A stretch of 32,000 bases of DNA from Acaryochloris marina MBIC11017 (GCF_000018105.1 NC_009925.1:1200001-1232000), one strand, 5' to 3'. Positions 14,201 through 27,897 are shown, counted from the first letter of the stretch. Program-made: numbers and translations. The notes: generated from the letters alone by a model not told the origin.

Positions 14201-14300
14201 GATGATACCCCACACCTGATTTTCCATTGACGGACTCTAGCTAAAGTCTTCCCGTTTCATCAGAGTGATGAACAGTTATTTCTACAGGTTCGTCTTTCAC

Positions 14301-15660
14301 TCATCTGGAAACGACGACATCTTGAAGCGGAGCATCGTTTAAATAGCCTTGCCACATCTGTTGAAAAGCACTTTCCAAAGAAGCCACAAATTGCTCCACC
14401 TGAAAGAGGGCAGGGTAAGTCTCCGGGGACTGTAGTTGTCGCTTTAACCCATTGCGGATCTCAGCTAATTCCGCTGGATGAGTGGCTAAGTGAATGGCTC
14501 GCTGTTCATAGTCGGCAACGCTTTTACAGATCAGTGACTCTAATCCCGCCGCCGCACAGATACTCGCCCCCATGCGTGACGCATTTGTGGGGCCGGGACA
14601 AGTGAGCATTGGTAATCCTGACCAGCAGGTCGCCACTGCCGTTGAACCGGCGTTATAGACAAAGGTATCTAAATACAAATCCGCCAGCCCATATCGAGCC
14701 AGGTAATCTTCATGGGCGATTTTAGGGGCAAAAACAAGTCGGTCTGGGTTCACGCCCCGCTGCTTGGCTTCAGTCCGCAAGTTACCCATCACCGTTTCAG
14801 CCCCCTCTATTAGCCAAAGAACGGAGTCCGGCACCTGCTGCAAAATTCGCATCCAGACATCAAATAGATCCGGCGTAATTTTGTAGTGAGAATTGAAGCA
14901 GCAGAACACAAACCCCGACTCAGGCACCCCAAACTCAGCACGGGTCATGGGGCGATCAGAGATCGCCAAGGGAGACCCCACAAACGCATGGGGGAGATAG
15001 ACAATTTTTTCCGTGTAGGACTGGGCAATTTCAGGCGAAATCAGCCACTGATCCGCCAGGGCATATTGGATAAACTCCGCCCCCATCGTATCGGGATAGC
15101 CTAACCATTGAGCTTGAATCGGCGCAGGCTGCAGAGACAGGACAGACGCCGCATTGCCAATGGTATAGCCCGCCAGATCCACCAAAATCTGAATCCCATC
15201 GTCGTAGATACGCTGGGCGGTCTGCTCGGTTGAGAGCGGAGATAAGTCAACAAAGGCATCACAGCCCGTTTGAATCTGTTGGGTGATGTGATCTTCGACA
15301 TCAACGGTCGTATAAGCAACAATCTCATACTGATCGCGGTTGTGGTGGGGAAACAGGTCAACCACCAAACGCCCAACGGCATGATCGCGCAGGTCAGGAG
15401 AAAGATAGCCAATCCGTAGTTTAGGGGTTGCTTTACAAGGATGGGCAAAGGTCAGAGAAGACCTCAGTTGGGCAACGGCTCGTTGGGCATTTTGAGCTTG
15501 GTTGCGGGCCGCCGCTTGATGCAGCTCTAACGGAAAATTAAAGGTGCTGAGAACAAAGGGATTGGGAGTATATTTCGCCGTAAAAGACTCCGCAATCATC
15601 TGCTGTAAGCGTTGCACCTGAGCCTCATAATCCTGCCAGTTACACAGCTTGATCTTGACT
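14301..15660 (-). other. Domain: canonical GT41 (O-GlcNAc-transferase-like) catalytic module
   Basis: LRIGYLSPDLRDHAVGRLV, ILVDLAGYT, QAQWLGYPDTMG, FVFCCFNSHYKITPDLFDVWMRIL and LDTFVYNAGSTAVATCWSGLPMLT are typical of TPR-GT41 proteins. Confidence 0.8.
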
Positions 15661-18600
15661 AAGCTGATAAAGAACCAGAGGGAATGGGTTTCGGGGTTCC
15701 CCTGCAAGGCCCGTTCGTAACAGGCTAAAGCCTCTTCTGACTTGCCCTGATATTCAAAAATTTGCCCCAAGCTAAAATGGGCTTCCGTATGCTGGGGTTC
15801 AGCCACAACCACTTTTTGATAATGCTCAATGGCAACGGCCATACGCCGCTGTTCTTTATAGAGGTTAGCCAAATTCAAATGGGCTGGGACGTAGTCCGGT
15901 TTTAGTTGTAAGGCTCGATAAAAACCAGCTTTAGCCCGTTCTGGCTGCTCATTCAGTTGCCAAATACTCGCCAGATTAGAATGGGCTTCGGCAAAGTTCG
16001 TGTTGAGCTGAAGGGCTTGTTGATAGCAGGCTTCGGCCTCTTGAATATTGCCCTGATTTTGGAGCAAGGTGCCCAAGTTGTTATAAGCGCCCCAATGATT
16101 CGGGTAGAGGTGAATCACTTCCCGTAAACAAGCTTCTGCTTCCGTGAGTTTGTTCTCTTTCTTCAGCTGTCGGCTGCGCTCAAATAAGGCTTGCACCGTG
16201 GAGGGGGCCGCTAGGGTGGTAGCAGGAGTAGCCGAAGGTGAGGACGGTTCAAACCCATTCAAAGCGAGGGGATCATTTTTAAGTAAATGTTGCTGTAAGA
16301 GGTCATCAATGGGTTTTAAGGTACTTTCATCTTCTAAGAACACCTGCCCCACATATTCCAACCCTTGTCTTGCGGCAGGGTAGGGGTTCTGCAGAAAAAT
16401 CTCATCATGAACCATACAGGAGGACTGGGTTTTGGGATAAATCTGAGTCGCCAAGAAATGCTGATCAATGCCGTACCGCAACCCCAGATCGGCTTGGTCA
16501 ACCAGATGCTGCTCTACCAGTAGTTCCATGTCCAAGACATTGCCTTTGACCCCCCACATTCCTGCCAGCATGGGCACATTATGACGGGGATGATCGCGCA
16601 TAATATGGTACTTCTGGGGACTTTGGAGCCAAGCCTCCACCGCAGCTTTTTCTCGCAGATTCAGGCGAGAGTCGGCATCCCGACAAATCAACACCTCAAC
16701 ATCTGGATCAGCAGCGGGCAAGAACCGAGCAAATGACATCTTCCAGCCTCTATCTCCGTCTAGCTGAATGACTTCAACGTGGGAGCGGGCCTTTAATTGG
16801 TTAACCACCTCAGAGGGAACGGTCTGGTCCACATAGAAGCGACAAATCCAGCCGGGGTAGAGGGTCGGAGCTAAGTCTGCATTCTTAAGGGCACCCGTGG
16901 TGTACTTCGGGTTGGCACCCCACAGACTAAAGGCAATGACCCGTTGGCGCCGCCGGGAAGCGGACGGCGGATGCTCTTCTTCCAGCTCGGCAAACGAGGA
17001 GGGGAGCAACTGCTGTAATAAAGTCCCCACTTGAGCACCATAGGCTGGGCTATCCATAAAAGCAGGATTGGCGGCCATTTTTTGTTGAATCAGCGTCCGA
17101 TACTGCTGCCGTCGAGTCGAATCTTGGCCTAGCTGAATAGCCAATTCAACGTATCCCTGTTCATCTGTGGCAATTAAATCAGTTAAGTCAATTGATTCCA
17201 GTAAAGCTGGACCTTGCCGGGAGCGGAGCGAATGTCCGGCTTGAGTAACGACGGGAAGTCCTACTTCTAAGGGATCTAGAAGAGAGGTAACCCCCGTAAA
17301 GGGATAAGCATCGAGATAAACATCCGCAATCTGCAGCAGTTGTTTGACTTGTTCTCGGTTGGGAATCGGATCTTGAATGATCAGTCGGGAGGGGTCAATC
17401 CCGTCGCCTGCAAACAATGCAGCCATATGGTTACGAAAGGCTGAAACGGGATAGTGATGACTCCAAGCGGAGAAGGGATAGAGCAAAAGGACTGAGTTAG
17501 GGACTGCGGCTAATATCTGGGTCCATGTGATTCTTAGCTCGGGTATCAGTTTGAAAAAGTTAGCCCCGGACACAAAGACCACGGCATCATCAGCAATATT
17601 CAAATCGCGGCGGTAGTAGGAGGCGGCTGTCGGCTGCTGGGCACTAGGAGGAAAACGGTAGCAACAGGAGGGGCCAGCCCAAGTGACCAGCTTCTCACTA
17701 TATTGGCTCTGAAAGGTCTCAGCAGGGGTAGTAAGTTCCCCTGAGAGGTAGTAATCAATATTATTGATGCCAGAGGTGACGGGGGACGAATTAGCAGAAA
17801 CCTGAACTCGGGCCAGCCGATACATCGCTAATCGAGCAGTGGACTTATTGCCAACCGCAATATTGATCCCAAACAGCAAGATATCTAGGTCGTCATTCCG
17901 AATCCGTTGAACGGATTCCGGTAGGTCTTGAGGTAGGAGTACAAACTGATCGCATCGACTCCGGCAATAGGCTTCTAGAGGGTGATCTTGGCTAGACTCG
18001 GCGTAGAGAATGATTTCAAACTGCTGCCGATCTAAATGCTCATAGAATGGCAGGGTGGAAAAGGTCTCCGAATGAGGACTATAGGCTTGATTGAGAACAC
18101 CCAGGCGAATTTTTGATCGGTGCGAAGGTCTAGGTGAACCGTGCTGATGCACGGTCATTCCGCGATGTTCTAAACTGAATTCCGTAATCGCAGCCCACTT
18201 GATAAAGGTGTCTTTCAGGTTGAGATCGTTAAAGTAGATAGGCGCAAATACCGCTTCGGCGGCGACCGCAGCCACGCTTTGCCAAGAGGCTGAGTTGAGA
18301 TTTTGATGAATCTTGCGATGGATAAAGGTAAACCAATGGTTTAAATATTGGGCATACTGCTCTGACTCCCCCACGGCTTGAAAAAATAGAGGGACGGCCT
18401 GCATATAGGCGAGATAGTCATTCACCAACCACGATGGAATCGTAATCGGTTCAAACCAGCGCTCTGGAAGCTGATAGGCGGCGCGGTACGGCATCAGAGC
18501 GAGGAGTGACTGCACGGGATGGGTCGTCAATGCTGTCATCAGCGGTTCAATAAAGGCCTGCTCTGCAGCGGTGAGGGGTTCATAGCGCAGGTCATGGTTC

Positions 18601-19898
18601 ACCAGGGTTCGGTGAGCTTGGCCCAGTTCCCCACCATAGGCTGCTTCTAACTGTTCTAGGGGGAGGTTCAACCACTGCTGGACCAGGTGTTGGCGATGTT
18701 GTCTAAGGTCAGCAAGTTCGGGTTGATCCTCAGGTTGGGTCAACGTGGTTGGCGGCTTGGGAGGGGCCGGGCTAACCGTGGGGTTCGGTTGCGGTGGGTC
18801 CGGGACCTGCGGTCCTAGGGTAATCAGTTGGGCAATTTCTTCGCTTTGGAACCCTAAGGCCATCGGGCGCTGCACCTGGGGCAAAATTTGGACATCGTAG
18901 AGTTCGGTGATGATGCCTTCAAACCGCAACCAATGTTCAATAGCTCCGGTATTGAGGTTAATCACCATCAGCCCACAGCGCGGGCTGGCATCCTTGGCTT
19001 TGAGTATGTCATCTAGGGGTAGGCCTGAGAAGGTTTTATCGCCATTGCGAGGTTGCGATAAACCGACAATGGCAAAATCCCCCCAAAAGGCCAGCCCTCT
19101 AAGGTAACCGGGGCAGAAAGCAATGGGTTCAAAGGTGCCGGTTCGTAAATCGACGTAGCCTAATTCTCCTCGACCGGAGTTGAGGAGCCAGAGGCGGTCC
19201 CGATACCAGCGAGGGGAGTGGGGCATAGAAAAGCCAGTCGCCACAATCTCGTTAGTGGACAAGTCCATCACAAGGCCGCCATCCTGACGGCGATCTCGCC
19301 AGCCATCAATGATGTCGGAGCGGCTGACGGCGGTAACGTAGCGGGGTTGGCCGTTTACAGCGGCTAATCCGTTCAGGTGGCATCGATCTTCGTTGATGAT
19401 GCGGGAAATAAAGGGCGGTTTCCAGAGGGGCTGGCAACTGTAGTGATCGCTAACTGTAGCGATGCAGTTGAGGAGGGTACTGACAAACACAAAGGGGACA
19501 GGGAGGGTTTCCTGCCAGGGAGTACCATCAATCCCTCGCTCGACTTCGACAATATCGTGGATATCTAAATCACCGGTGGTATAGCCTATTCGTGGGATGT
19601 AGAGCTTGTCGTAGCCGTTGTGTTGCTGTTGGCCAGATAAGACATTATCAAATCGCCAAATCTGATATTTAGAACTGAGGTAGAGGCGATCGGTCGTGGT
19701 GTAAAGGCCCATAGCCCGGTCAAAGATACGTTCAAACCCAGAGATAGTTCTACCGTCGGGACTAACGCCCAATAGCATCAGGCGACTGGTTTGGTAGGTA
19801 GTGCAGGCAATACTAATTTTCTGTTGTGCTAACCAGGGAATAAACTGACGATCTGCGGTGATGTCGTGACCTGAGGAAGAAGCGGTGCGTTTCGTCAT
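14301..19898 (-). CDS. Giant multidomain glycosyltransferase (TIGR03032/DUF4915-like + GT41-like + DXD GT-A-like + TPR + GT41)
   Basis: Single uninterrupted 1,865-codon ORF. The domain reading is given in the sub-features below. Confidence 0.9.
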   Translation of the reverse strand: MTKRTASSSGHDITADRQFIPWLAQQKISIACTTYQTSRLMLLGVSPDGRTISGFERIFDRAMGLYTTTDRLYLSSKYQIWRFDNVLSGQQQHNGYDKLYIPRIGYTTGDLDIHDIVEVERGIDGTPWQETLPVPFVFVSTLLNCIATVSDHYSCQPLWKPPFISRIINEDRCHLNGLAAVNGQPRYVTAVSRSDIIDGWRDRRQDGGLVMDLSTNEIVATGFSMPHSPRWYRDRLWLLNSGRGELGYVDLRTGTFEPIAFCPGYLRGLAFWGDFAIVGLSQPRNGDKTFSGLPLDDILKAKDASPRCGLMVINLNTGAIEHWLRFEGIITELYDVQILPQVQRPMALGFQSEEIAQLITLGPQVPDPPQPNPTVSPAPPKPPTTLTQPEDQPELADLRQHRQHLVQQWLNLPLEQLEAAYGGELGQAHRTLVNHDLRYEPLTAAEQAFIEPLMTALTTHPVQSLLALMPYRAAYQLPERWFEPITIPSWLVNDYLAYMQAVPLFFQAVGESEQYAQYLNHWFTFIHRKIHQNLNSASWQSVAAVAAEAVFAPIYFNDLNLKDTFIKWAAITEFSLEHRGMTVHQHGSPRPSHRSKIRLGVLNQAYSPHSETFSTLPFYEHLDRQQFEIILYAESSQDHPLEAYCRSRCDQFVLLPQDLPESVQRIRNDDLDILLFGINIAVGNKSTARLAMYRLARVQVSANSSPVTSGINNIDYYLSGELTTPAETFQSQYSEKLVTWAGPSCCYRFPPSAQQPTAASYYRRDLNIADDAVVFVSGANFFKLIPELRITWTQILAAVPNSVLLLYPFSAWSHHYPVSAFRNHMAALFAGDGIDPSRLIIQDPIPNREQVKQLLQIADVYLDAYPFTGVTSLLDPLEVGLPVVTQAGHSLRSRQGPALLESIDLTDLIATDEQGYVELAIQLGQDSTRRQQYRTLIQQKMAANPAFMDSPAYGAQVGTLLQQLLPSSFAELEEEHPPSASRRRQRVIAFSLWGANPKYTTGALKNADLAPTLYPGWICRFYVDQTVPSEVVNQLKARSHVEVIQLDGDRGWKMSFARFLPAADPDVEVLICRDADSRLNLREKAAVEAWLQSPQKYHIMRDHPRHNVPMLAGMWGVKGNVLDMELLVEQHLVDQADLGLRYGIDQHFLATQIYPKTQSSCMVHDEIFLQNPYPAARQGLEYVGQVFLEDESTLKPIDDLLQQHLLKNDPLALNGFEPSSPSATPATTLAAPSTVQALFERSRQLKKENKLTEAEACLREVIHLYPNHWGAYNNLGTLLQNQGNIQEAEACYQQALQLNTNFAEAHSNLASIWQLNEQPERAKAGFYRALQLKPDYVPAHLNLANLYKEQRRMAVAIEHYQKVVVAEPQHTEAHFSLGQIFEYQGKSEEALACYERALQGNPETHSLWFFISLVKIKLCNWQDYEAQVQRLQQMIAESFTAKYTPNPFVLSTFNFPLELHQAAARNQAQNAQRAVAQLRSSLTFAHPCKATPKLRIGYLSPDLRDHAVGRLVVDLFPHHNRDQYEIVAYTTVDVEDHITQQIQTGCDAFVDLSPLSTEQTAQRIYDDGIQILVDLAGYTIGNAASVLSLQPAPIQAQWLGYPDTMGAEFIQYALADQWLISPEIAQSYTEKIVYLPHAFVGSPLAISDRPMTRAEFGVPESGFVFCCFNSHYKITPDLFDVWMRILQQVPDSVLWLIEGAETVMGNLRTEAKQRGVNPDRLVFAPKIAHEDYLARYGLADLYLDTFVYNAGSTAVATCWSGLPMLTCPGPTNASRMGASICAAAGLESLICKSVADYEQRAIHLATHPAELAEIRNGLKRQLQSPETYPALFQVEQFVASLESAFQQMWQGYLNDAPLQDVVVSR
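15700..16196 (-). other. Domain: TPR repeats (about 4-5)
   Basis: 34-aa periodic helices with the W/Y-G-A-Y/F-A-P pattern (AYNNLGTLLQNQGNIQEAEACYQQALQLNTNFAEAHSNLASIW...). Confidence 0.8.
16326..16956 (-). other. Domain: compact DXD-containing GT-A-like module (aa ~980-1190), approximate bounds
   Basis: RVIAFSLWGANPKYTTGALKNADLAPTLYPGWICRFYVD ... VLICRDADSRL (DXD-like) ... MRDHPRH..PMLAGMWG. It resembles an uncharacterised nucleotide-sugar transferase family. Confidence 0.45.
17010..18113 (-). other. Domain: first GT41 (OGT/SPINDLY-like) catalytic-type module (aa ~595-960), approximate bounds
   Basis: IRLGVLNQAYSPHSETF...ILLFGINIAVGNKSTARLAMYRLARVQVS...VVFVSGANFFKLIPELRITWTQIL...LDAYPFTGVTSLLDPLEVGLPVVT parallels the second GT41 module of the same protein position by position. 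Confidence 0.55.
18815..19898 (-). other. Domain: TIGR03032 / DUF4915-type domain of unknown function (aa ~1-360), approximate bounds
   Basis: The motifs HSPRWYRDRLWLLNSGRGELGYVD, CPGYLRGLAFWGDFAIVGLS and GLMVINLNTGAIEHWLRFEG..ELYDV match the invariant motifs I recall for this uncharacterised family. It is followed by a Pro-rich linker, PQVPDPPQPNPTVSPAPPKPP (~18720-18815). Confidence 0.6.
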
Positions 19899-20533
19899 TG
19901 CATTCTGAGTTCAGGAGATATCTGCATTACAGCATTAATTTCTCCATAGTTTGCCCTTTGTCTCAGCTAAATTTTTGCTTCCAAGCCATTAAGAGATCTG
20001 TGCTAAGAAACTTTTCTTGCCCGTAGCCCTATGGGGAACTGGTTGGCTATCCCGAGGAGATAAGTCTATCTGATCATATAGATGTCCGTTTTATGGGAGT
20101 GAGGATCTGCGGTTATGGGGCGAGCAAGATTTCTAGTTGATCTAGAGTGGGCAATAGTGAAACATCCTATCCACAGGCTAAATATGCAATCTCAATTGAG
20201 TGTTTAAGATATGTACATTTTCATGGGCAAGAAAATATACTTTAGCTGTATGAAAGATCTCTTCACTTGTCCATACTAGGTTTAGCCCTAACCTTGTTGG
20301 GGCAGGCCTATCTTTATATCTACACCATAGTTCCAGCTCTTCTTCATCATTGATGGTGGGCTGAACAATATTCAAACACTGGATTGGCAACCGCTCTTAA
20401 TCGCATTTGAACCATACAGCTCTTAGGCTGATGACTTGTGAAGGCTCCCTAAAGAAGGAGCTGAAGCAACTCATGAGTCTTGTTCGCTATGGGTGGAAAT
20501 TAGCTGCTACACATTCATCACGTCGTCCCTAAA

Positions 20534-23500
20534 ATGCTCTCTCAGTCCCCAACCCCCTTGTCCTCCGCCTGCCAGACTTTACAGCGTCTCGTTATTATTG
20601 ACCCCACAATTGATAAACCTCAGCATTTGATTGATGGTGTTCTGCCCGGTACAAGGGTGGTAGTGCTGGACCCTGAGCGAGACAGTATCCCCCAAGTTAC
20701 GCAGGCATTGCAAACGCATGGGCCGATTGCAGAGGTGCATTTAGTCAGTCACGGGGCACCTGGTCAAATCCAGTGGGGCAATTGTTGGCTAACGCTGGCA
20801 AACTTAGGGCAATATGCGGTTGAGCTACAGCTCTGGGGAGATCTTTTAGGGGAAAAGGCAACGGTCTTTGTCTATGGATGTCAGGTGGCTGCTGGCGAAG
20901 TGGGACAGCGATTTATTCGACGACTAGGGCAACTGCTAGGGACTTCGATTGCTGCCAATGAGAATTTGACTGGAAGTACTGTAATGGGGGGGGATTGGGA
21001 ACTTTCCTATGGATTGTCCCCGATATTCTTATCTCACCGTTTATCCGCTCTTTTGCCGTTTACGACCACAACGCTCAACACTTATCCTGCTCACCTAGCT
21101 GCGGACTTTAGTGCACAAACCACCTTTGCGACTGGAGATGCCCCATCCTCTGTCAGCGTGGGAGACTTTAACGGCGATAGCCACGCTGACTTGGTGACGG
21201 TAAACTTCTTGAACAACAACGTTTCCGTTCTTTTTGGGGATGGTTCCGGTGGATTCTCTAGCCAAACCACCTTTGCAACGGGATACTCCTCTCTCTCTGC
21301 CAGCGTAGGAGACTTTAATGGCGACGGCCATGCTGATTTGGTGACGGCCAACGGCAGTGGCAACAATATCTCCGTTTTTTTAGGAGATGGCTCGGGCGGG
21401 TTCTCTAGCCCAACTACTTTTGCCGCAGGAAGCATCCCTATCTCCGTCACTGTGGGTGATTTTAATGGCGATAGCCATGCCGACCTGGCGGTGGCAAACA
21501 CTATTAGCCATAACATCTCCGTTTTCTTAGGGAATGGCTCTGGTGGGTTCTCTAGCCAAACTACCTTCGCCGTCGGAGATAGACCTAGCTCTGTGACCGT
21601 GGGTGACTTTAATGGCGATAGCCATGCCGACCTAGTGACGACCAACGGCACTAGCGACAACGTTTCTGTTCTATTAGGGGATGGCTCAGGTGGATTCTCT
21701 AGCCAAACCACCTTTGCCGCAGGGGATAGTCCTTCCTCCGTCACCGTGGGTGATTTTAATGGCGATAGCCATGCCGACCTGGTGACGACCAACGGCACTA
21801 GCGACAACGTTTCTGTTCTGTTAGGGGATGGCTCAGGTGGATTCTCTAGCCAAACCACCTTTGCCGCAGGGAATACCCCTAGATCTATTAAAGTGGGAGA
21901 CTTTAATGGCGACGGCCATGCTGATTTAGTGATGGCGAACCTCAATAGTAACAATGTGTCTGTCCTCGTGGGAGATGGCTCAGGCGGATTCTCTAGCCAA
22001 ACCACCTTTGCGGCTGGGTCTAATCCTACCTCCGTCATCGTCACGGACTTCAATGGTGACAGCCAAGCAGACTTGGTGACAGCGAACGATGGCAACAACG
22101 TCTCTGTCCTTCTGAATACAACACCAATTGACCATACTATTGCTGTGGATGTACCACAGATTATTGAAGGGAATAGCGCTAGCCAAACATTGACTTTTAC
22201 CATCACCCGCCCTGGGTTTACAGCCCAAGCCAGCAGTGTTGATTTCGCTATTGGGGGTTCAGCCACCAACGGCAGCGACTTCAACAATATCGGCGGCACG
22301 AGTGGAGCCACAGCAACGACGGGAACCATCAACTTTGCCGCCGGAGAAACCAGTAAAACCATTACTCTCGATGTCTTAGGAGATACCAGCTTCGAAACTC
22401 TTGAAACTATTGAGGTCTCCCTCAGCAATGCAACCGCAGGCATCAACACCGCGATTAGTGCAGATACCGCCACCAGCACGATCCTTAACGATGAACTCTT
22501 GGTGGACTTTAGTCCCCAAAGCAACTTTGCTGTCGAAGGTGGTCCCGCTGCTGTTAGCGTCGGGGACTTTAATGGCGATAGCCACGCCGACTTAGTAACA
22601 GGAAACTACTCCAACGGCAATATCTCTGTTCTGTTAGGAGATGGGTCTGGGGGATTCTCTAGCCAAACCACCTTTGCAGCTGGCACTGGCCCTTACTCCA
22701 TTACCGTTGGAGATTTCAATGGCGATAGCCAAGCGGACTTAGCGACGGCGAACTATAGCAACGGCAGCGTCTCTGTGCTGCTAGGAGATGGGTCTGGGGG
22801 ATTCTCAGGTCAAACCACCTTCGCAGTTGGCAGTAATTCTCGCTCCATTGCCGTCGGGGATTTTAATGGCGATAGCCACGCCGACTTAGTTGTTGCAAAC
22901 GATAATTCTAACGGTGATGTCTCTGTTCTGTTAGGAGATGGATTAGGCGGATTCTCTAACCAAACCACCTTTGCGGCTGGATCTAATCCTACCTCCGTCA
23001 TCGTCACGGACTTCAATGGCGACAGCCAAGCCGATTTAGTTGTTGCAAACAGTAGCGATGACAATGTCTCTGTTTTGTTAGGGGACGGGTCAGGTGGGTT
23101 CTCGAACCAAATCACCTTTGCCACTGGGAATAATCCATTCACCGTAGCTGCGGGAGATTTCAATGGGGATAGCCAAGCCGATTTAGTTGTTGCAAACGAG
23201 AGTGATAACAATGTCTCCGTTCTGTTAGGAGATGGCTCAGGCGGGTTCTCCAGCCAAGCCACCTTTGCGACTGGAAATCGTCCTAGATTCGTAGTAGTGG
23301 AGGACTTTAATGGCGATGGCCAAGCGGACTTGGTAGCAGCGAGCACCAACAACAACAACGTGTCCGTTCTGCTTGGAGATGGCTCTGGTGGATTTTCTAG
23401 TCCAACTACTTTCTCAGTAGGACATTTGGCTATCTCAAGATCTGTAGCGGACTTTAATGGCGATAGCCAAGCGGATTTGGTGACCACAAGTTTCGGGGGC

Positions 23501-25165
23501 AATAACGTCTCTGTCCTTCTCAATAACTCTGAAATCGATCACAGCATCAGCGTTGACGCTACTCAGATGATTGAGGGAGATAGCGGGAGTCAAACGCTCA
23601 CGTTCACCGTCACTCGTTCTGGGTTTACAGCCCAAGCCAGCAGTATCGATTTCGCTATTGGGGGTTCAGCCACCAACGGCAGCGACTTCAACAATATCGG
23701 CGGTACGAGTGGAGCCACAGCAACGACGGGAACCATCAACTTTGCCGCTGGGGAAACCAGCAAAACCATCACTCTTGATGTACTAGGTGACACTGACTTC
23801 GAGACCTTTGAGACCATTGAGGTGACCCTAAGCAATGACACAGCAGGGGTCAACACCACGATTAGTGCAGATACCGCCACCAGCACAGTCCTTAACGATG
23901 AACTCTTTACGGACTTTAGTGCTCAAACCACCTTTGCAACTGGGGAGAGCCCTTTCTCCGTAGCTGTTGGGGACTTTAATGGCGATAACCAAGCTGACTT
24001 GGTGACGGCAAACTACAATAGCGACAACATTTCGGTCTTTTTAGGGGATGGCTCGGGCGGGTTCTCTGCTCAAACTACCTTCGCGGCAGTAGATGGTCCT
24101 TATTTTGTTACTGTGGCAGACTTCAATGGTGATAGTCATGCTGACTTGGTGACGGCGAACTTAGGTAGCAGCAACGTGTCTATTTTGTTGGGGGATGGCT
24201 CGGGCGGGTTCTCCAGCCAAACCACCTTTGCGGTTGGGTCCTTTCCTAGTTCTGTTACTGTGGCGGACTTCAATGGTGATAGTCATGCTGACTTGGTGAC
24301 GGCCAACCAAGGTAGCAACGACGTCTCCGTTCTGTTAGGGAATGGCTCTGGTGGGTTTTCCAGTCAAACGACCTTTGCCACTGGAGATAGACCTCGCTCC
24401 ATTGCTATGGCCGACTTCAATGGCGACAGTCAGGCTGATTTTATAACCGCCAATCAAGGTAGCGACAACATCTCCGTCTTTTTAGGGGATGGCTCGGGCG
24501 GGTTCTCCAGCCAAACCACCTTTGCCGCTGGAGATAGACCTTACACAGTAGCTGTGGGAGACTTTAACAGCGATAGCCAAGTCGATTTGGTGACAGCCAA
24601 TGCTGGGGACGACAACGTTTCCATTCTGCTAGGGAATGGTTCAGGGGGATTCTCTAGCCAATCTACCTTTGCGGTGGGAGATCGCCCTTTCTCTGTCAGC
24701 ATCGGAGACTTTAATGGTGACGGCCAAGCTGACCTAGTGACGGCGGACAATATTAGCAACAACGTCTCCGTTCTCTTAGGGAACGGTTCTGGCGGTTTCT
24801 CTAGTCCAATCACCTTTGCCACTGGGGTAAATCCCCCTTCTGTAACCGTAGGTGACTTTAATGGTGATGGCCTAGACGAGATAGTGGTGGCAAACTTCAG
24901 TAGCAACAGCCTCTCTGTCCTCAGCGCCAACACCACACTGGCCTCTTTAGACGGCTCCGGCAATCTAGTGATCACTGACCGTTCCAACTCTAAAGACGAT
25001 ACCCTTACCCTCACCAGCGATGGCAGCAACATCACCCTTAGTGATCCAAACAATCTGCTCAACCATGCCATCTCAGGAGCTACAGGCAATGGCACCAACA
25101 CCCTTACCATCCCTAATGCACTAGTGCTTCGCCACAGTGATTATGACAGGATAGTTTGGGGATAG
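20534..25165 (+). CDS. N-terminal fragment as currently translatable (1,543 aa): DUF4347-like domain, 3 x 7 FG-GAP blades, 2 Calx-beta domains
   Basis: Track ORF. The last 14 codons (VLRHSDYDRIVWG) are read from the IS end. No N-terminal signal peptide is evident. Confidence 0.85.
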   Translation: MLSQSPTPLSSACQTLQRLVIIDPTIDKPQHLIDGVLPGTRVVVLDPERDSIPQVTQALQTHGPIAEVHLVSHGAPGQIQWGNCWLTLANLGQYAVELQLWGDLLGEKATVFVYGCQVAAGEVGQRFIRRLGQLLGTSIAANENLTGSTVMGGDWELSYGLSPIFLSHRLSALLPFTTTTLNTYPAHLAADFSAQTTFATGDAPSSVSVGDFNGDSHADLVTVNFLNNNVSVLFGDGSGGFSSQTTFATGYSSLSASVGDFNGDGHADLVTANGSGNNISVFLGDGSGGFSSPTTFAAGSIPISVTVGDFNGDSHADLAVANTISHNISVFLGNGSGGFSSQTTFAVGDRPSSVTVGDFNGDSHADLVTTNGTSDNVSVLLGDGSGGFSSQTTFAAGDSPSSVTVGDFNGDSHADLVTTNGTSDNVSVLLGDGSGGFSSQTTFAAGNTPRSIKVGDFNGDGHADLVMANLNSNNVSVLVGDGSGGFSSQTTFAAGSNPTSVIVTDFNGDSQADLVTANDGNNVSVLLNTTPIDHTIAVDVPQIIEGNSASQTLTFTITRPGFTAQASSVDFAIGGSATNGSDFNNIGGTSGATATTGTINFAAGETSKTITLDVLGDTSFETLETIEVSLSNATAGINTAISADTATSTILNDELLVDFSPQSNFAVEGGPAAVSVGDFNGDSHADLVTGNYSNGNISVLLGDGSGGFSSQTTFAAGTGPYSITVGDFNGDSQADLATANYSNGSVSVLLGDGSGGFSGQTTFAVGSNSRSIAVGDFNGDSHADLVVANDNSNGDVSVLLGDGLGGFSNQTTFAAGSNPTSVIVTDFNGDSQADLVVANSSDDNVSVLLGDGSGGFSNQITFATGNNPFTVAAGDFNGDSQADLVVANESDNNVSVLLGDGSGGFSSQATFATGNRPRFVVVEDFNGDGQADLVAASTNNNNVSVLLGDGSGGFSSPTTFSVGHLAISRSVADFNGDSQADLVTTSFGGNNVSVLLNNSEIDHSISVDATQMIEGDSGSQTLTFTVTRSGFTAQASSIDFAIGGSATNGSDFNNIGGTSGATATTGTINFAAGETSKTITLDVLGDTDFETFETIEVTLSNDTAGVNTTISADTATSTVLNDELFTDFSAQTTFATGESPFSVAVGDFNGDNQADLVTANYNSDNISVFLGDGSGGFSAQTTFAAVDGPYFVTVADFNGDSHADLVTANLGSSNVSILLGDGSGGFSSQTTFAVGSFPSSVTVADFNGDSHADLVTANQGSNDVSVLLGNGSGGFSSQTTFATGDRPRSIAMADFNGDSQADFITANQGSDNISVFLGDGSGGFSSQTTFAAGDRPYTVAVGDFNSDSQVDLVTANAGDDNVSILLGNGSGGFSSQSTFAVGDRPFSVSIGDFNGDGQADLVTADNISNNVSVLLGNGSGGFSSPITFATGVNPPSVTVGDFNGDGLDEIVVANFSSNSLSVLSANTTLASLDGSGNLVITDRSNSKDDTLTLTSDGSNITLSDPNNLLNHAISGATGNGTNTLTIPNALVLRHSDYDRIVWG
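20582..21015 (+). other. Domain: DUF4347-like N-terminal domain, approximate bounds
   Basis: LVIIDPTIDKPQHLIDGVLPGTRVVVLDPERDSIPQVTQALQTHGPIAEVHLVSHGAPGQIQWG...VFVYGCQVAAGEVGQRFIRRLGQLLGTSIAANENLTGSTVMGGDWEL matches the pattern I recall for DUF4347, found at the N-terminus of giant cyanobacterial repeat proteins. Confidence 0.6.
21100..22125 (+). repeat. FG-GAP/VCBS-type repeat block 1: seven blades of about 49 aa (147 bp)
   Basis: There are seven units of FSSQTTFA.G..P.SV.VGDFNGD(S/G)(H/Q)ADLV..N...NNVSVLLGDGSGG. Blades 4 and 5 share 115 of 117 nt (21608-21724 vs 21755-21871). Confidence 0.85.
22125..22500 (+). other. Domain: Calx-beta 1, approximate bounds
   Basis: EGNSASQTLTFTITRPG..AQASSVDFAIGGSATNGSDF...TINFAAGETSKTITLDVLGD..FE..ETIEVSLSN is the Calx-beta pattern. 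Confidence 0.7.
22500..23525 (+). repeat. FG-GAP/VCBS-type repeat block 2: seven blades
   Basis: It has the same unit as block 1. It is offset by 1,407 bp from block 1, measured from the Calx-beta landmarks at 22217 and 23624. Confidence 0.85.
23530..23905 (+). other. Domain: Calx-beta 2, approximate bounds
   Basis: Near-copy of Calx-beta 1. A 56-nt run and a 44-nt run are identical between the copies, separated by a single C/T difference (22241-22341 vs 23648-23748). Confidence 0.7.
23905..24935 (+). repeat. FG-GAP/VCBS-type repeat block 3: seven blades
   Basis: Seven further units follow. The last (FATGVNPPSVTVGDFNGDGLDEIVVANFSSNSLSVL) is degenerate, as expected for a closing blade. Confidence 0.8.
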
Positions 25166-25839
25166 AGTCGGCTGAGTTTAGTTCGTGCATCATCCACCGT
25201 AAACAACCAATTAACCGTTGCCTTATCATGGTTCCGCCTTTTTTCCCATGCAGTGACCTCGTACCGGAGTTGTTCAATATCAGGAATCCGCCGATTTAAG
25301 CATTGCCTCGAAAGGGCAGAGAACTCAAACTCAATCATATTGAGCCAACTGCCATGTTTTGGGGTGTAGTGAAACTGAATACGCTTGAGAATCCGCAAGG
25401 CTTCATCTGGATTGAAGGTTTTGTAAAGTGCTGCGGGAGAATGGGTATTGAGATTGTCCAAAACAACATGTAGCTTGTCAGCCTGGGGAAACAGACCATC
25501 CACTAGATATTGCATGCAAAGTGCAAAATCTTCGCTTTTGCGATGCTCAGTCACCTTCAAATGTCGCCAACTTTTGAGCGGTTGAAAAAAGCCAAATATA
25601 TTACAAGTGCCCTTCCGCTCATATTCATGGTCGTAGCGTTGAGGACGACCGGGCTTCGGTGGACGGGGCACCCGGGTTTCGCCAATCAGTTGGCAAGGCC
25701 GTTCATCAAAACAAACAACAGGCTCATCAGGATCGTAGGGTTGGGCATACCAATCTAGAACGTTCTCCATCCGCCAAACAAAGTCTGCGCCTACAGTAGA
25801 AAAACACCACTGCTCTTTTAGCCAAGGCTTAAGCTGTTT
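25141..25839 (-). CDS. IS630-family transposase, DDE catalytic part (orfB frame, open upstream to the A7 run)
   Basis: The track ORF 25141-25770 (VCFDERPCQL, VVLDNLNTHS, HYTPKHGSWLNMIEFEFS) extends without stops upstream as KQLKPWLKEQWCFSTVGADFVWR, back to the slippery run. Confidence 0.85.
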   Translation of the reverse strand, partial: KQLKPWLKEQWCFSTVGADFVWRMENVLDWYAQPYDPDEPVVCFDERPCQLIGETRVPRPPKPGRPQRYDHEYERKGTCNIFGFFQPLKSWRHLKVTEHRKSEDFALCMQYLVDGLFPQADKLHVVLDNLNTHSPAALYKTFNPDEALRILKRIQFHYTPKHGSWLNMIEFEFSALSRQCLNRRIPDIEQLRYEVTAWEKRRNHDKATVNWLFTVDDARTKLSRLYPQTILS

Positions 25840-26258
25840 TTTTCGAGCGTACGTCGCACAGTTTCATCCGATAGGCTTTCGACGACTTTAAGTTCAACCA
25901 GCCGTTCTGCCAATAGCTGCATGGTCCACCGGCAACAACCGGTTGGTGGGTCGCTACAAGCTGTCGCAATTAGCAAGGCCTCTGCTTTGCTATCGAGCTT
26001 CTTTTGCCCTCCTGGTCTGGGACGCTCATTGAGGGCAAATTCCACACCACCTTCAACAAATTTCTGGCGAGTACGATGCACGGTAGAGATGCCTGCATTG
26101 AGCATTTGAGTAATGGTATCGTCTTTGTGTCCCTCATCTGCCAACATCAAAATCTGGGCTCGTTTCATTTTTCGCGCTGACAGGGTTCTACGTCGGGTGA
26201 GTTGTATCAGCTCACTGCGTTCTTCAGGCGTTAGCGTCACAATATATTTGTCAGGCAT
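25818..26258 (-). CDS. IS630-family transposase, N-terminal HTH part (orfA)
   Basis: 146-aa ORF with helix-turn-helix regions (RAQILMLADEGHKDDTITQMLNAGISTVHRTRQKF; CRWTMQLLAERLV). It ends shortly after an A7 run. Confidence 0.85.
   Translation of the reverse strand: MPDKYIVTLTPEERSELIQLTRRRTLSARKMKRAQILMLADEGHKDDTITQMLNAGISTVHRTRQKFVEGGVEFALNERPRPGGQKKLDSKAEALLIATACSDPPTGCCRWTMQLLAERLVELKVVESLSDETVRRTLEKNSLSLG
25837..25843 (-). promoter_or_regulatory. A7 slippery run (T7 on the plus strand) joining orfA and orfB by a -1 shift
   Basis: The minus strand reads GAA AAA AAC in frame A. A -1 slip gives GAA AAA AAA CAG CTT AAG CCT TGG, i.e. ...TLEKKQLKPWLKEQW..., the junction expected for a full-length IS630-type transposase. 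Confidence 0.55.
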
Positions 26259-26356
26259 GATTAGTTGGCTAAAAACAGCTAGATTGTTGCTAGCTTACCT
26301 ATCCAATTCAGTGTGGTCGAGCACTAGTTACAGGTTCCCAAATCCTGATCAATACA

Positions 26357-26512
26357 GGTGGGGGGAACGATACCGTCTCTGGTAGCAATCTAGCCGAAAC
26401 CATCAATGGTGGAGCGGGCAACGATAGACTCAACGGCAATAACGGTAATGACACCCTCTCAGGCGGCCTAGGAGCCGATACCCTTACAGGCGGTGCTGGC
26501 GATGATGTGCTG
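26357..26512 (+). repeat. RTX (GGxGxDxUx) calcium-binding nonapeptide block 1
   Basis: [52 protein letters not shown]. Confidence 0.8.
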
Positions 26513-26620
26513 ATTGATGAGGGCAGCGGCGAAGCTGAGAACCCAGACGCTGCCGCCTTTGGCCCTGCCACCACTGCCACTACTGCCTTCGCTGGCACCA
26601 GCGGCTTTACCAATGAGGAC

Positions 26621-27545
26621 CAATTCCCCCGCCGATTAGCTGATGTCAATGGCGATGGTCGAGCCGATATTGTTGGCTTTGGCAATAGTGCCGTGGTTGT
26701 GGCTCTCGGGCAAGCAGATGGCACCTTTGGTACAGCCTTCGTTGCCGACAATGTGTTTACCCGCCTCAATGGCTTTTCCAGTGAAGACCAATTCCCCCGC
26801 CGATTAGCTGATGTCAATGGCGATGGTCGAGCCGATATTATTGGCTTTGGTAATAGTGCCGTGGCTGTGGCTCTTGGACAAGCAGATGGCACCTTTGGTA
26901 CAGCCTTCGTTGCCGACAATGTGTTTACCCGCCTCAATGGCTTTTCCAGTGAAGACCAATTCCCCCGCCGATTAGCTGATGTCAATGGCGATGGTCGAGC
27001 CGATATTATTGGCTTTGGTAATAGTGCCGTGGCTGTGGCTCTTGGACAAGCAGATGGCACCTTTGGTGCAGCCTTCGTTGCCGACAATGTGTTTACCCGC
27101 CTCAATGGCTTTTCCAGTGAAGACCAATTCCCCCGCCAATTAGCTGATGTCAATGGCGATGGTCGAGCCGATATTATTGGCTTTGGTAATAGTGCCGTGG
27201 CTGTGGCTCTCGGACAAGCAGATGGCACCTTTGGTGCAGCCTTCGTTGCCGATAATGTATTTACCCGCCTGAATGGCTTTAGCAGTGAGGATCTATTCTC
27301 TCGCCAGGTAGCGGATGTGAATGGCGATGGCCGAGCCGATATTATCGGCTTTGGTAATAGCGCCGTAGCTGTAGCCCTAGGCCAAGCAGATGGCACCTTT
27401 GGTACAGCCACAGTGGTCAACCAAAGCTTCGCCCGACTCGGAGGCTTTCCAACATCATCTGCCACACCGCGACTCGTGGCAGATGTGGATGGGGATAACC
27501 GAGCCGATATCGTTGGTTTTGGCAATGATCAGGTAACCATTGCTA
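26621..27545 (+). repeat. Tandem 168-bp (56-aa) repeat array, about 5.5 units, FG-GAP-like
   Basis: Unit phase markers lie at 26621, 26789, 26957, 27125, 27293 and 27461. The unit is [56 protein letters not shown]. Regions 26761-26928 and 26929-27096 differ at one position (26900 A vs 27068 G). Confidence 0.9.
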
Positions 27546-27571
27546 CCGCGCTGGCCGTCAATGACAGTCTG

Positions 27572-27662
27572 ATTGGCGGTACAGGAAACGACCGTCTCGT
27601 TGGTGGAACCGGCAATGATCTGCTCACAGGCGGCGCTGATGCCGACACGTTTGTCTTTGATG
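27572..27662 (+). repeat. RTX nonapeptide block 2
   Basis: [30 protein letters not shown] is followed by a non-repetitive acidic/hydrophobic C-terminal tail. This layout is typical of type-1-secretion substrates. Confidence 0.7.
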
Positions 27663-27897
27663 CCAACGCAGCGTTGGGTGGCATTGATCAGATTACAGAT
27701 TTCAATGCAGCTCAAGGAGACATCCTAGAGATTGACCAAGCAGCATTTGGCATTATGGGGCTGGCCGATATTTCCTTCAATGCGACGAGTGGGGAATTAT
27801 TCGTCACCGGCACCCATAACAACACCCTGGCTATCCTTACCGGGCAATCTGGGTTTGATATCAATACTCATGTCAACCTAGTCTAAGGATGCATTAC

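What the first reader, a model, noticed from the sequence alone, without database searches (positions are those of the whole stretch)
14301..19898. 1,865-aa fusion of an orphan TIGR03032/DUF4915-type domain with three glycosyltransferase modules
Seen: one uninterrupted minus-strand ORF. Reading its translation, I recognise these parts.
(i) aa ~1-360 carry SPRWYRDRLWLLNSGRGELGYVD, CPGYLRGLAFWGDFAIVGLS and GLMVINLNTGAIEHWLRFEG..ELYDV. I recall these as the invariant motifs of the function-unknown family TIGR03032 (Pfam DUF4915).
(ii) A Pro-rich linker follows.
(iii) aa ~595-960 form a GT41-like module that retains an FNxxxK-type motif (ANFFKLIPE).
(iv) aa ~980-1190 form a compact module with SLWGANPKY and a DXD-like CRDADSR.
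(v) TPRs.
(vi) A canonical GT41 module (YLSPDLRDHAVG, CFNSHYKITPD).

TPR+GT41 alone is commonplace. Two GT41-type modules, an extra DXD module and the orphan domain in one polypeptide look like an assembly line for a multi-sugar modification. The fusion would also give a functional context (glycosylation or acceptor recognition) to a family with no assigned function.
Basis: partly seen in the sequence, partly recalled or inferred. Interest (0 to 1): 0.72.

Follow-up and report, generated by a model that had tools for sequence, protein, structure and literature searches.

The report
Multi-enzyme glycosyltransferase paired with giant repeat protein
A real 1,865-residue cyanobacterial protein joins an uncharacterised beta-propeller domain to three sugar-transferase modules, and across three bacterial phyla that propeller domain is encoded next to giant integrin-like (FG-GAP) secreted proteins, which are therefore its likely targets.

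Summary
ORF 14301-19898(-) is intact and is Acaryochloris marina AM1_1237, already annotated "TIGR03032 family protein".

All six parts hold:
- DUF4915/TIGR03032 (E = 1e-132), predicted to be a beta-propeller.
- A Pro-rich linker.
- A divergent OGT/SPINDLY-like GT41 module.
- A GT-A DXD module with no Pfam model, closest to chlorovirus A64R.
- TPRs.
- A canonical GT41.

The DUF4915-TPR-GT41 fusion is not rare. It is common in cyanobacteria, with variable extra cassettes (GNAT, GT2, GT4, GT11, NodZ-like, sulfotransferase). Only the five-module layout is rare (6 clusters).

The new finding is a gene neighbourhood. DUF4915 genes, fused or stand-alone, sit next to giant FG-GAP repeat proteins, often RTX-tailed, in 44 of 83 species loci (odds ratio about 16). 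This holds in Cyanobacteria, Planctomycetota and Nitrosomonas. The window shows it too: the divergent FG-GAP gene (20534-27886) is split by an IS630-like insertion but is intact (2,048 aa) in a sister strain.

Best reading: a cytoplasmic modular glycosylation enzyme that decorates the neighbouring FG-GAP giant before export. DUF4915 would be the FG-GAP-specific module, with a near-invariant D-R-C-H motif. No glycosylation has been shown.

The parts
14301..19898 (-). Whole ORF, 1865 aa (A. marina AM1_1237 / WP_012161820.1); no signal peptide or hydrophobic N-terminus, hence cytoplasmic
18819..19859 (-). aa 14-360: DUF4915/TIGR03032 domain, predicted 6-7-bladed beta-propeller. D171-R172-C173-H174 is near-invariant family-wide and lies just before an innermost blade strand
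   Evidence: coordinates verified
18714..18818 (-). aa 361-395: Pro-rich, poorly conserved linker
18129..18713 (-). aa 396-590: conserved region with no family match, taking the place of the TPR/helical region N-terminal to a GT41 catalytic domain
17019..18128 (-). aa 591-960: divergent GT41 (OGT/SPINDLY-like) GT-B module. Catalytic Lys is invariant; the His498 equivalent is variable among orthologues. 24% identical to the C-terminal GT41
16299..16961 (-). aa 980-1200: GT-A fold module with invariant DXD (RDADSR); no Pfam model. Closest to PBCV-1 A64R domain 1 and to uncharacterised phage and giant-virus proteins
15654..16196 (-). aa 1235-1415: TPR array
14304..15653 (-). aa 1416-1865: canonical GT41 catalytic domain (no metazoan intervening domain); His498 and Lys842 equivalents present
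19899..20533 (.). 635-bp divergent intergenic region between the fusion gene and the FG-GAP gene. No promoter signal above chance
20534..25123 (+). 5' part of the neighbouring giant gene: DUF4347 head (aa 19-187), about 22 near-identical FG-GAP_3 repeats and Calx-beta domains. Candidate substrate
25120..26328 (.). IS630-like insertion (31-nt terminal inverted repeats, TA duplication, HTH_32 and DDE_3 ORFs on the minus strand) that splits the FG-GAP gene
26327..27886 (+). 3' part of the same FG-GAP gene: further FG-GAP_3 repeats plus RTX (HemolysinCabind) repeats. Joined to the 5' part it gives 2049 aa, 96.2% identical end-to-end to the intact 2048-aa gene of a sister strain

Best explanation
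AM1_1237 is a cytoplasmic, modular protein-glycosylation enzyme. Its most likely substrate is the divergently encoded giant FG-GAP/RTX repeat protein (20534-27886, IS-disrupted in this strain).

Proposed mechanism:
- The TPR array and the DUF4915 beta-propeller engage the unfolded or partly folded Ser/Thr/Asn-rich FG-GAP repeats before export.
- The canonical TPR-GT41 module attaches the first sugar to the protein.
- The second GT41-like module and the GT-A (A64R-like) module add further or different sugars.
- In other species, alternative cassettes (sulfotransferase, GNAT, GT2, GT4, GT11, NodZ-like) diversify the decoration.

DUF4915 is the constant, FG-GAP-linked component. It also works as a stand-alone protein next to FG-GAP genes where no glycosyltransferase is fused. 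Its near-invariant D-R-C-H motif at the mouth of the propeller channel suggests a defined ligand-binding or catalytic site rather than a passive scaffold.

Shown: domain identities and folds, recurrent fusions, conserved adjacency, IS disruption. Inferred: that the FG-GAP protein is the acceptor, the order of action, the sugars, and what DUF4915 does chemically.
For: Domains and folds.

All folded modules are under purifying selection while the linkers decay (DUF4915 82-94%, linkers 14-26%).

Recurrent DUF4915-TPR-GT41 fusions carry variable transferase cassettes. The domain order is reversed in L011, and DUF4915 sits at N-, mid- or C-terminal positions across the family. That argues for functional coupling rather than one inherited accident.

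Unbiased clustering of neighbours in 83 loci from different species found a single dominant neighbour family, the FG-GAP giants:
- present in 53 of 84 loci at a median distance of 288 bp;
- the immediate neighbour in 44 of 83 loci;
- 28.8% of rank-1 ORFs against 2.5% at rank 4 or beyond, Fisher odds ratio 15.8, p = 2e-20;
- seen in Cyanobacteria, Planctomycetota, Nitrosomonas and Sulfuritalea, in varying orientation.

Independent gene calls confirm the pattern in N. punctiforme (39 bp downstream), Cylindrospermum stagnale, Planktothrix agardhii, sister A. marina and a 73%-identical homologue.

30 of 43 long neighbours have C-terminal RTX-like repeats, as expected for proteins exported unfolded from the cytoplasm. 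This is the compartment where GT41 enzymes act.

Precedents:
- S. elongatus TPR-GT41 Ogt is needed for pilin glycosylation (PMC9306852).
- An FG-GAP protein is abundant in the Nostoc exoproteome (PMC5702739).
- HMW1C (GT41) glycosylates the adjacent HMW1 adhesin (established knowledge).

Stand-alone relatives of the GT-A module lie in glycan-synthesis clusters.
Against: - There is no direct evidence of glycosylation of any FG-GAP protein here.
- N-X-S/T sequon density in the neighbours is 4x that of controls, but this is largely compositional (median z 1.2).
- About 45% of loci show no FG-GAP neighbour, and their neighbours are heterogeneous.
- Stand-alone DUF4915 genes pair with FG-GAP genes with no glycosyltransferase nearby, so the DUF4915-FG-GAP link does not by itself require glycosylation.
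- In this very strain the putative substrate gene is IS-disrupted while the enzyme ORF is intact. That is compatible with a recent insertion but also with other substrates.
- The His498 equivalent of the second GT41 module is not conserved among orthologues.
They are phylogenetically related, so the p-value overstates independence.
Confidence: 0.5

Rival explanations
1. The glycosyltransferase modules act on other proteins (pilins, or many cytoplasmic proteins as classical OGTs do). The FG-GAP adjacency reflects a separate, glycosylation-independent job of DUF4915, for example a cytoplasmic chaperone, export adaptor or quality-control factor for FG-GAP/RTX giants. The fusion would merely co-regulate two cell-surface functions.
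For: - Stand-alone DUF4915 genes sit 10-230 bp from FG-GAP genes with no GT nearby in Nostoc, Nitrosomonas and Planctomycetota.
- S. elongatus Ogt targets a pilin (PMC9306852).
- The enzyme ORF is intact here although the FG-GAP gene is disrupted.
Against: - Fusions to TPR-GT41 arose in both domain orders and with many cassette types. This is hard to explain without a shared substrate.
- The fused versions keep the FG-GAP neighbour.
- A near-invariant Cys-His motif is unusual for a pure chaperone.
Confidence: 0.22
2. DUF4915 is itself an enzyme, using Cys173/His174 possibly with a metal. It carries out a distinct covalent step, either on FG-GAP repeats (a non-glycosyl modification, or processing or removal of a sugar) or on a sugar donor. 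The GT modules are then accessory, and the propeller is the core activity of the system.
For: - Extreme conservation: 55% identity across phyla; it is the most conserved module of the fusion.
- D171, R172, C173 and H174 are 92-99% conserved in 128 representatives of 50%-identity clusters, together with R230, R267 and E332. All lie at the start of inner blade strands, the canonical propeller active-site face (inference from the fold).
Against: - There is no structural match to any propeller enzyme. The top hits are generic YWTD, YVTN and Kelch binding propellers at TM about 0.5.
- There is no sequence match to any solved structure.
- No chemistry can be assigned.
Confidence: 0.2
3. The system builds or modifies a polysaccharide or glycolipid rather than a protein. 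The FG-GAP giant would be an extracellular partner (for example a glycan-binding or lyase-like protein), not the acceptor.
For: - Stand-alone relatives of the GT-A module are in polysaccharide-type clusters.
- Some DUF4915 loci have GT2, GT4 or WecA-type neighbours.
- A weak RGL11 lyase-like hit lies in the 3' FG-GAP fragment.
Against: - All characterised GT41 enzymes are protein glycosyltransferases (established knowledge).
- TPR arrays are protein-binding.
- There is no flippase, polymerase or lipid-carrier gene in the window next to the ORF.
Confidence: 0.06
4. The long ORF is an assembly chimera or a decaying pseudogene.
For: IS elements and transposase fragments flank the region.
Against: - An identical or near-identical full-length ORF occurs in two complete genomes and in several independent assemblies.
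- Six orthologue clusters at 66-96% identity keep all modules and their catalytic motifs.
Confidence: 0.02

Closest known systems
TIGR03032 / Pfam DUF4915 family (function unknown)
   Same: aa 14-360 matches end-to-end, well above the curated cutoffs, and keeps all family-wide invariant residues.
   Different: Most members are stand-alone proteins of about 355 aa. Here the domain heads a five-module enzyme. No function had been attached to the family: there is no paper in the searchable library.
GT41 O-GlcNAc transferase / SPINDLY type enzymes (human OGT, Xanthomonas XcOGT, Arabidopsis SPY, S. elongatus Ogt)
   Same: - TPR array followed by a two-lobe GT-B domain.
- His498 and Lys842 equivalents are present in the C-terminal module; Lys is present in the second module.
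- Cytoplasmic location.
- The cyanobacterial Ogt modifies a secreted or surface protein, the pilin (PMC9306852).
   Different: - Two GT41 modules in one chain, only 24% identical to each other.
- The GHTT motif is replaced by AGST in the C-terminal module and GVTS in the second, so the donor sugar is uncertain.
- The enzyme is fused to a propeller and a GT-A module.
HMW1C-HMW1 (and related NGT-adhesin) systems
   Same: Logic only: a cytoplasmic GT41-fold enzyme encoded beside a giant repetitive secreted protein, which it glycosylates before export.
   Different: - The NGT model scores 41 bits against a cutoff of 1000, and PDB HMW1C matches only at E = 8e-4. So this is not an HMW1C-type N-glycosyltransferase.
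- The partner is an FG-GAP/RTX protein, not a two-partner-secretion adhesin.
- Extra modules are present.
Chlorovirus PBCV-1 A064R (multi-domain glycosyltransferase for capsid glycans)
   Same: - Several transferase domains in one polypeptide build a protein-linked glycan (established knowledge).
- The GT-A module here is closest to A64R domain 1 by fold (2p6w/2p73, TM 0.51-0.58) and by profile (E = 0.002).
   Different: - Sequence identity is only about 13-16%.
- The viral enzyme has no GT41, TPR or propeller.
- Closer structural relatives (TM 0.76-0.79, 26-29% identity) are uncharacterised phage and giant-virus proteins.

Membership tests
TIGR03032 / DUF4915 | Whole-domain HMM score above the curated cutoff | tested here: met
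   TIGR03032 441.8 bits against 251.5. PF16261 455.2 bits against 35, covering profile positions 2-316 of 316.
TIGR03032 / DUF4915 | Family-wide invariant motifs (EDRCHLNG, PHSPR, CPGYLRGLAF) | tested here: met
   All are present. C173 occurs in 127 of 128 and H174 in 121 of 128 representatives.
GT41 (C-terminal module, aa 1416-1865) | Glyco_transf_41 HMM above the gathering score; two-lobe GT-B domain aligned to OGT | tested here: met
   285 bits against 25. Human OGT E = 4e-71 and XcOGT E = 2e-64 over both lobes.
GT41 (C-terminal module) | Catalytic Lys (hOGT K842) and His (H498) equivalents | tested here: met
   CFNSHYKITPD aligns with CNFNQLYKIDPS, and YLSPDLRDHAVG aligns with YVSSDFGNHPTS. 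Both are conserved in the orthologues.
GT41 (C-terminal module) | N-terminal TPR array | tested here: met
   TPR_1/2/8/11 hits at aa 1235-1415.
GT41 (C-terminal module) | UDP-GlcNAc as donor; O-GlcNAc on Ser/Thr | not testable with these tools
   The GHTT motif (H920-T922 of hOGT) reads AGST here. The donor is unknown.
GT41 (second module, aa 591-960) | Glyco_transf_41 HMM above the gathering score; both lobes aligned | tested here: met
   119.4 bits against 25. XcOGT residues 197-559 are aligned; SPINDLY E = 7e-25.
GT41 (second module) | Catalytic Lys and His equivalents | tested here: inconclusive
   Lys (ANFFKLIPE) is invariant in 7 of 7 orthologues. His is replaced by D (P0251) and by S (P0253) in two of them.
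GT41 (second module) | Preceding TPR array | tested here: not met
   aa 360-600 gives no Pfam hit at E <= 1.
HMW1C-type N-glycosyltransferase (NF049992) | Equivalog HMM score above the cutoff | tested here: not met
   41.2 bits against a cutoff of 1000, partial coverage only. PDB 3q3e matches at E = 8e-4.
GT-A fold DXD glycosyltransferases (module aa 980-1200) | Rossmann-like GT-A fold | tested here: met
   Model pLDDT 95.7. Foldseek probability 1.0 to A64R, Skp1 alpha-GalT (GT77) and glycogenin (GT8), TM 0.5-0.58.
GT-A fold DXD glycosyltransferases | DXD motif after strand beta-4 | tested here: met
   R-D-A-D-S-R follows strand 89-94 of the model. D96 and D98 are invariant in 45 sequences, and D-[AT]-D is kept in the orthologues.
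GT-A fold DXD glycosyltransferases | Assignment to a curated (Pfam/CAZy) family | tested here: not met
   No Pfam hit at E <= 1, and the listed homologues carry no Pfam domain (806 hits in all). CAZy/dbCAN is not available here.

The most novel reading that the evidence does not exclude
DUF4915 defines a previously unrecognised, widespread two-gene module: a cytoplasmic Cys/His beta-propeller paired with a giant FG-GAP, integrin-like secreted protein. It is found in Cyanobacteria, Planctomycetota and nitrifying Betaproteobacteria. In this reading the propeller is a new kind of FG-GAP-repeat-specific maturation enzyme or recognition factor. In cyanobacteria it has repeatedly captured glycosyl-, sulfo- and acetyl-transferase cassettes, forming single-polypeptide assembly lines that decorate these surface proteins.
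Probability: 0.3. Interest if true: 0.78.

Novelty: new variant of a known kind. Interest (0 to 1): 0.6.

Why it matters
DUF4915/TIGR03032 is a large orphan family: 1,373 clusters at 50% identity with E <= 1e-30. No paper in the searchable library mentions it.

Linking it to GT41 protein glycosyltransferases and to giant FG-GAP/RTX exoproteins turns "function unknown" into a concrete experiment that can be done by knockout and mass spectrometry. One such FG-GAP protein is among the most abundant secreted proteins of symbiotic Nostoc.

Cyanobacterial surface and RTX-type proteins have long been known to be glycosylated (own knowledge), and I know of no assigned enzymes for that. These fusions are candidate enzymes.

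The interchangeable cassettes (sugar, sulfate, acetyl) would also be a compact natural toolkit for protein glyco-engineering.

Tried and rejected
- N-glycosylation sequon hypothesis. The FG-GAP repeats carry N-X-S/T motifs. Density is 1.7 per 100 aa against 0.42 in controls, but the median z against composition-preserving shuffles is only 1.2. The sequon position also differs between repeat types. Not used as evidence.
- HMW1C-type NGT membership of the second GT41 module: rejected.
- Recent internal duplication of GT41: rejected, since the two modules are 24% identical.
- Assembly chimera or pseudogene: rejected.
- Promoter and terminator scan of the divergent intergenic region: no signal above shuffles.
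- Profile and sequence searches of DUF4915 and DUF4347 against PDB sequences: nothing.
- Fold search of DUF4915: only generic propellers, no enzyme family.
- Literature searches for DUF4915, TIGR03032, DUF4347/DUF3352 and the locus tags: nothing relevant. The supplements of PMC5702739 are not held, so I could not check whether Npun_R6586 has a DUF4915 neighbour.
- The narrow FG-GAP regex undercounted VCBS-type repeats and was replaced by a broader definition.
- The DUF3352 gene downstream is conserved only within A. marina: 1 of 84 loci plus the sister strain. It is not part of the conserved module.
- Microcystis P0335 could not be located on a contig.

Full report
**Observation**

The window is from the Acaryochloris marina MBIC11017 chromosome. 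ORF 14301..19898 on the minus strand is uninterrupted, starts with ATG and encodes 1865 aa. The exact protein is in NCBI and UniProt as AM1_1237 / WP_012161820.1 / B0C414, named "TIGR03032 family protein" or "protein O-GlcNAc transferase". A 1861-aa version occurs in a second complete A. marina genome and in several independent assemblies. It is therefore a real gene, not a chimera.

**Domain anatomy**

- aa 14-360 match TIGR03032 at 441.8 bits (cutoff 251.5) and Pfam DUF4915 at E = 1.5e-136.
- aa 361-395 form a Pro-rich linker.
- aa 396-590 have no family match but are conserved among orthologues.
- aa 591-960 match Glyco_transf_41 at 119 bits. They align over both GT-B lobes with XcOGT, SPINDLY (7e-25) and OGT, but only marginally with HMW1C (8e-4).
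- aa 980-1200 have no Pfam hit.
- aa 1235-1415 are TPRs.
- aa 1416-1865 are a canonical GT41 without the metazoan intervening domain.

Both GT41 modules keep the Lys equivalent to human OGT K842. In the second module it aligns with the K872M site of the catalytically dead Drosophila OGT 5a01. In this protein both modules also keep the H498 equivalent. The two GT41 modules are only 24% identical, so they are not a recent duplication.

**Structures**

An AlphaFold model of aa 1-365 (42-sequence alignment, pLDDT 85.3, pTM 0.87) is an all-beta propeller of 6-7 blades. Foldseek finds only generic YWTD, YVTN and Kelch propellers at TM about 0.5. A family profile hits nothing in PDB by sequence.

The model of aa 976-1205 (pLDDT 95.7) is a GT-A fold. 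Its best matches are the chlorovirus PBCV-1 A64R glycosyltransferase domain, the Skp1 alpha-galactosyltransferase and glycogenin. A64R is also the only PDB sequence hit of the family profile (E = 0.002). The R-D-A-D-S-R motif follows strand beta-4 and is invariant in 45 homologues.

This module belongs to a family of about 220-aa stand-alone proteins with no Pfam model (806 hits). That family has close structural relatives among uncharacterised phage and giant-virus proteins (TM 0.76-0.79). One marine member lies in a cluster with GT4, GT2, sulfotransferase, GT29, NeuB and CMP-sugar synthetase genes.

**Are the modules maintained?**

Six orthologue clusters at 66-96% identity cover the full length. 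Per-module identity to the most distant three:

| Module | Identity |
|---|---|
| DUF4915 | 82-86% |
| GT-A module | 76-81% |
| C-terminal GT41 | 67-80% |
| TPR | 64-80% |
| Second GT41 | 58-65% |
| Linkers | 14-56% |

The DXD motif and both catalytic Lys residues are invariant. The His of the second GT41 varies (H, D, S). All modules thus look functional; the second GT41 is the least constrained.

**How unusual is the fusion?**

Not very. A full-length search returned at least 120 clusters carrying DUF4915 plus TPR plus GT41. They include Microcystis aeruginosa, Planktothrix agardhii, Nostoc punctiforme, Cylindrospermum stagnale, Calothrix and Synechocystis salina, mostly named "TIGR03032 family protein". 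Many have additional GNAT, GT2, GT4, GT11, NodZ or sulfotransferase domains.

Direct scans of the region between DUF4915 and TPR-GT41 in other species showed:
- Sulfotransfer_1 + Sulfotransfer_3 + NodZ-like (L017);
- Glyco_trans_1_2 (L025);
- NodZ-like plus the same GT-A module (L018);
- a weak sulfotransferase-like region (L021).

L011 has the reverse order, TPR-GT41-DUF4915. In the 50%-identity library the family has 1,373 clusters at E <= 1e-30, with DUF4915 at N-terminal, internal or C-terminal positions. Most members are stand-alone proteins of about 355 aa. Only the layout with two GT41 modules and the GT-A module is rare.

**The neighbourhood**

I fetched 80 loci from different species that encode the closest DUF4915 relatives. 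I called ORFs and clustered all neighbours without prior labels.

One family dominates: giant FG-GAP (integrin-alpha-like) repeat proteins. They are present in 53 of 84 loci at a median distance of 288 bp. With a broader FG-GAP definition:
- they are the immediate neighbour in 44 of 83 loci;
- they account for 28.8% of rank-1 ORFs against 2.5% at rank 4 or beyond (odds ratio 15.8, p = 2e-20).

The p-value overstates independence because the species are related. Against that, the pairing occurs in Cyanobacteria, Planctomycetota, Nitrosomonas and Sulfuritalea. It appears upstream or downstream, co-directional at 10-230 bp or divergent, and with stand-alone as well as fused DUF4915.

In the closest cyanobacterial clade the giant carries an N-terminal DUF4347 head; elsewhere it does not. 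30 of 43 long neighbours have C-terminal RTX-like repeats.

Independent gene calls with precomputed Pfam confirm the pairing:
- Nostoc punctiforme: an FG-GAP_3/cadherin/Big_9/HemolysinCabind gene 39 bp downstream;
- Cylindrospermum stagnale;
- Microcoleus;
- Planktothrix agardhii: an FG-GAP-like giant after a transposase.

The remaining loci have heterogeneous neighbours, so the association is strong but not universal.

**The window's own pair**

The ORF is divergent, across 635 bp, from ORF 20534-25165. That ORF encodes a DUF4347 head, about 22 near-identical FG-GAP_3 repeats and Calx-beta domains. It ends inside an IS630-like element:
- 31-nt inverted repeats at 25120-25150 and 26298-26328;
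- a TA duplication;
- HTH_32 and DDE_3 ORFs.

Downstream, ORF 26507-27886 carries further FG-GAP_3 repeats plus RTX repeats. Precise excision gives a 2049-aa ORF that aligns end-to-end at 96.2% with the intact 2048-aa DUF4347/FG-GAP_3/HemolysinCabind gene found at the same position in sister strain AP026075.1. A 73%-identical five-module homologue is likewise divergent from a DUF4347/FG-GAP giant of more than 3,195 aa. The pair is therefore conserved, and the copy in this window is IS-disrupted.

**Interpretation**

The fusion protein has no signal peptide, and GT41 enzymes act in the cytoplasm. RTX-tailed giants leave the cytoplasm unfolded through type I secretion (established knowledge).

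The simplest model is a cytoplasmic, modular glycosylation enzyme that decorates the Ser/Thr/Asn-rich FG-GAP repeats before export. The logic is analogous to HMW1C-HMW1 and to S. elongatus Ogt-PilA (PMC9306852). The extra GT41 and GT-A modules would extend or diversify the glycan, as the multi-domain chlorovirus A064R does.

DUF4915 is the constant FG-GAP-linked element. Across 128 diverse representatives:
- D171, R172, C173 and H174 are 92-99% conserved and lie just before an innermost blade strand;
- R230, R267 and E332 sit at equivalent positions of later blades.

That points to a defined pocket at the channel mouth. Whether it binds FG-GAP repeats or catalyses a separate step cannot be decided here. 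Nothing here demonstrates glycosylation, and the sequon test was weak. The intact enzyme next to a disrupted substrate gene leaves room for other substrates.

**Verdict**

The protein and the basic fusion are already in the databases, but I found no description of the family's function or of the FG-GAP association. I rate it a new variant of a known kind (protein glycosyltransferase plus adjacent giant substrate). It has a genuinely orphan, highly conserved propeller component and a directly testable hypothesis.

Noticed in passing
window 25120-26328 (and 20534-27886): An IS630-like element (HTH_32 + DDE_3 ORFs, 31-nt inverted repeats, TA duplication) has split the FG-GAP giant gene. Excision restores a 2049-aa ORF that is 96.2% identical to the intact gene of a sister strain.
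   Followed up: yes
window 20588-21094 (+), DUF4347 head of the FG-GAP giant: In 19 of 19 DUF4347 domains, His73-Gly74 and Cys116 are invariant. They are about 43 residues apart, and each follows a hydrophobic strand-like stretch ('HLVSHG...VFVYGC'). This resembles a caspase/CHAT (clan CD) catalytic dyad, so the head may be a self-processing protease.
   Followed up: partly
window 16299-16961 (-); L087 6001-6666: The GT-A module belongs to a sizeable family (806 hits) of about 220-aa proteins with no Pfam model. The family has close relatives in phages and giant viruses (TM 0.76-0.79). A marine member is embedded in a sialic-acid, GT and sulfotransferase cluster next to phage-like PhoH and PD-(D/E)XK genes.
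   Followed up: partly
window 12545-14227 (-): A DUF3352 gene (560 aa, function unknown) lies 74 bp downstream of the big ORF on the same strand. It is conserved there in the sister A. marina strain but not in the other loci examined. It is possibly co-transcribed.
   Followed up: no
window 11649-12263 (+): An IS1-family transposase fragment lies just beyond the DUF3352 gene. Together with the IS630-like element, this means the locus sits in an IS-rich stretch.
   Followed up: no
L017 5240-7840; L086 13810-14358: Some DUF4915 fusions carry two sulfotransferase domains. In Cylindrospermum an APS-kinase gene and a PMT-type gene lie nearby. This hints that some of these systems sulfate as well as glycosylate their target.
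   Followed up: partly
window 20534-25165; L085 12794-19573; L039, L058: Each FG-GAP repeat of the neighbouring giants contains an N-X-S motif (NVSVLLG, NLSDLNG, NVSLSGV) and a Ser/Thr cluster (GGFSSQTTF). Enrichment over composition is modest (window z = 3.2, median 1.2), and the motif position differs between repeat types.
   Followed up: partly
window 21091-22524 (-) and 26308-27525 (-): Long antisense ORFs (477 and 405 aa) lie wholly inside the repetitive FG-GAP gene. They are most likely shadow ORFs of the repeat sequence; the one scanned (26308-27525) has only a sub-threshold Pfam hit.
   Followed up: no
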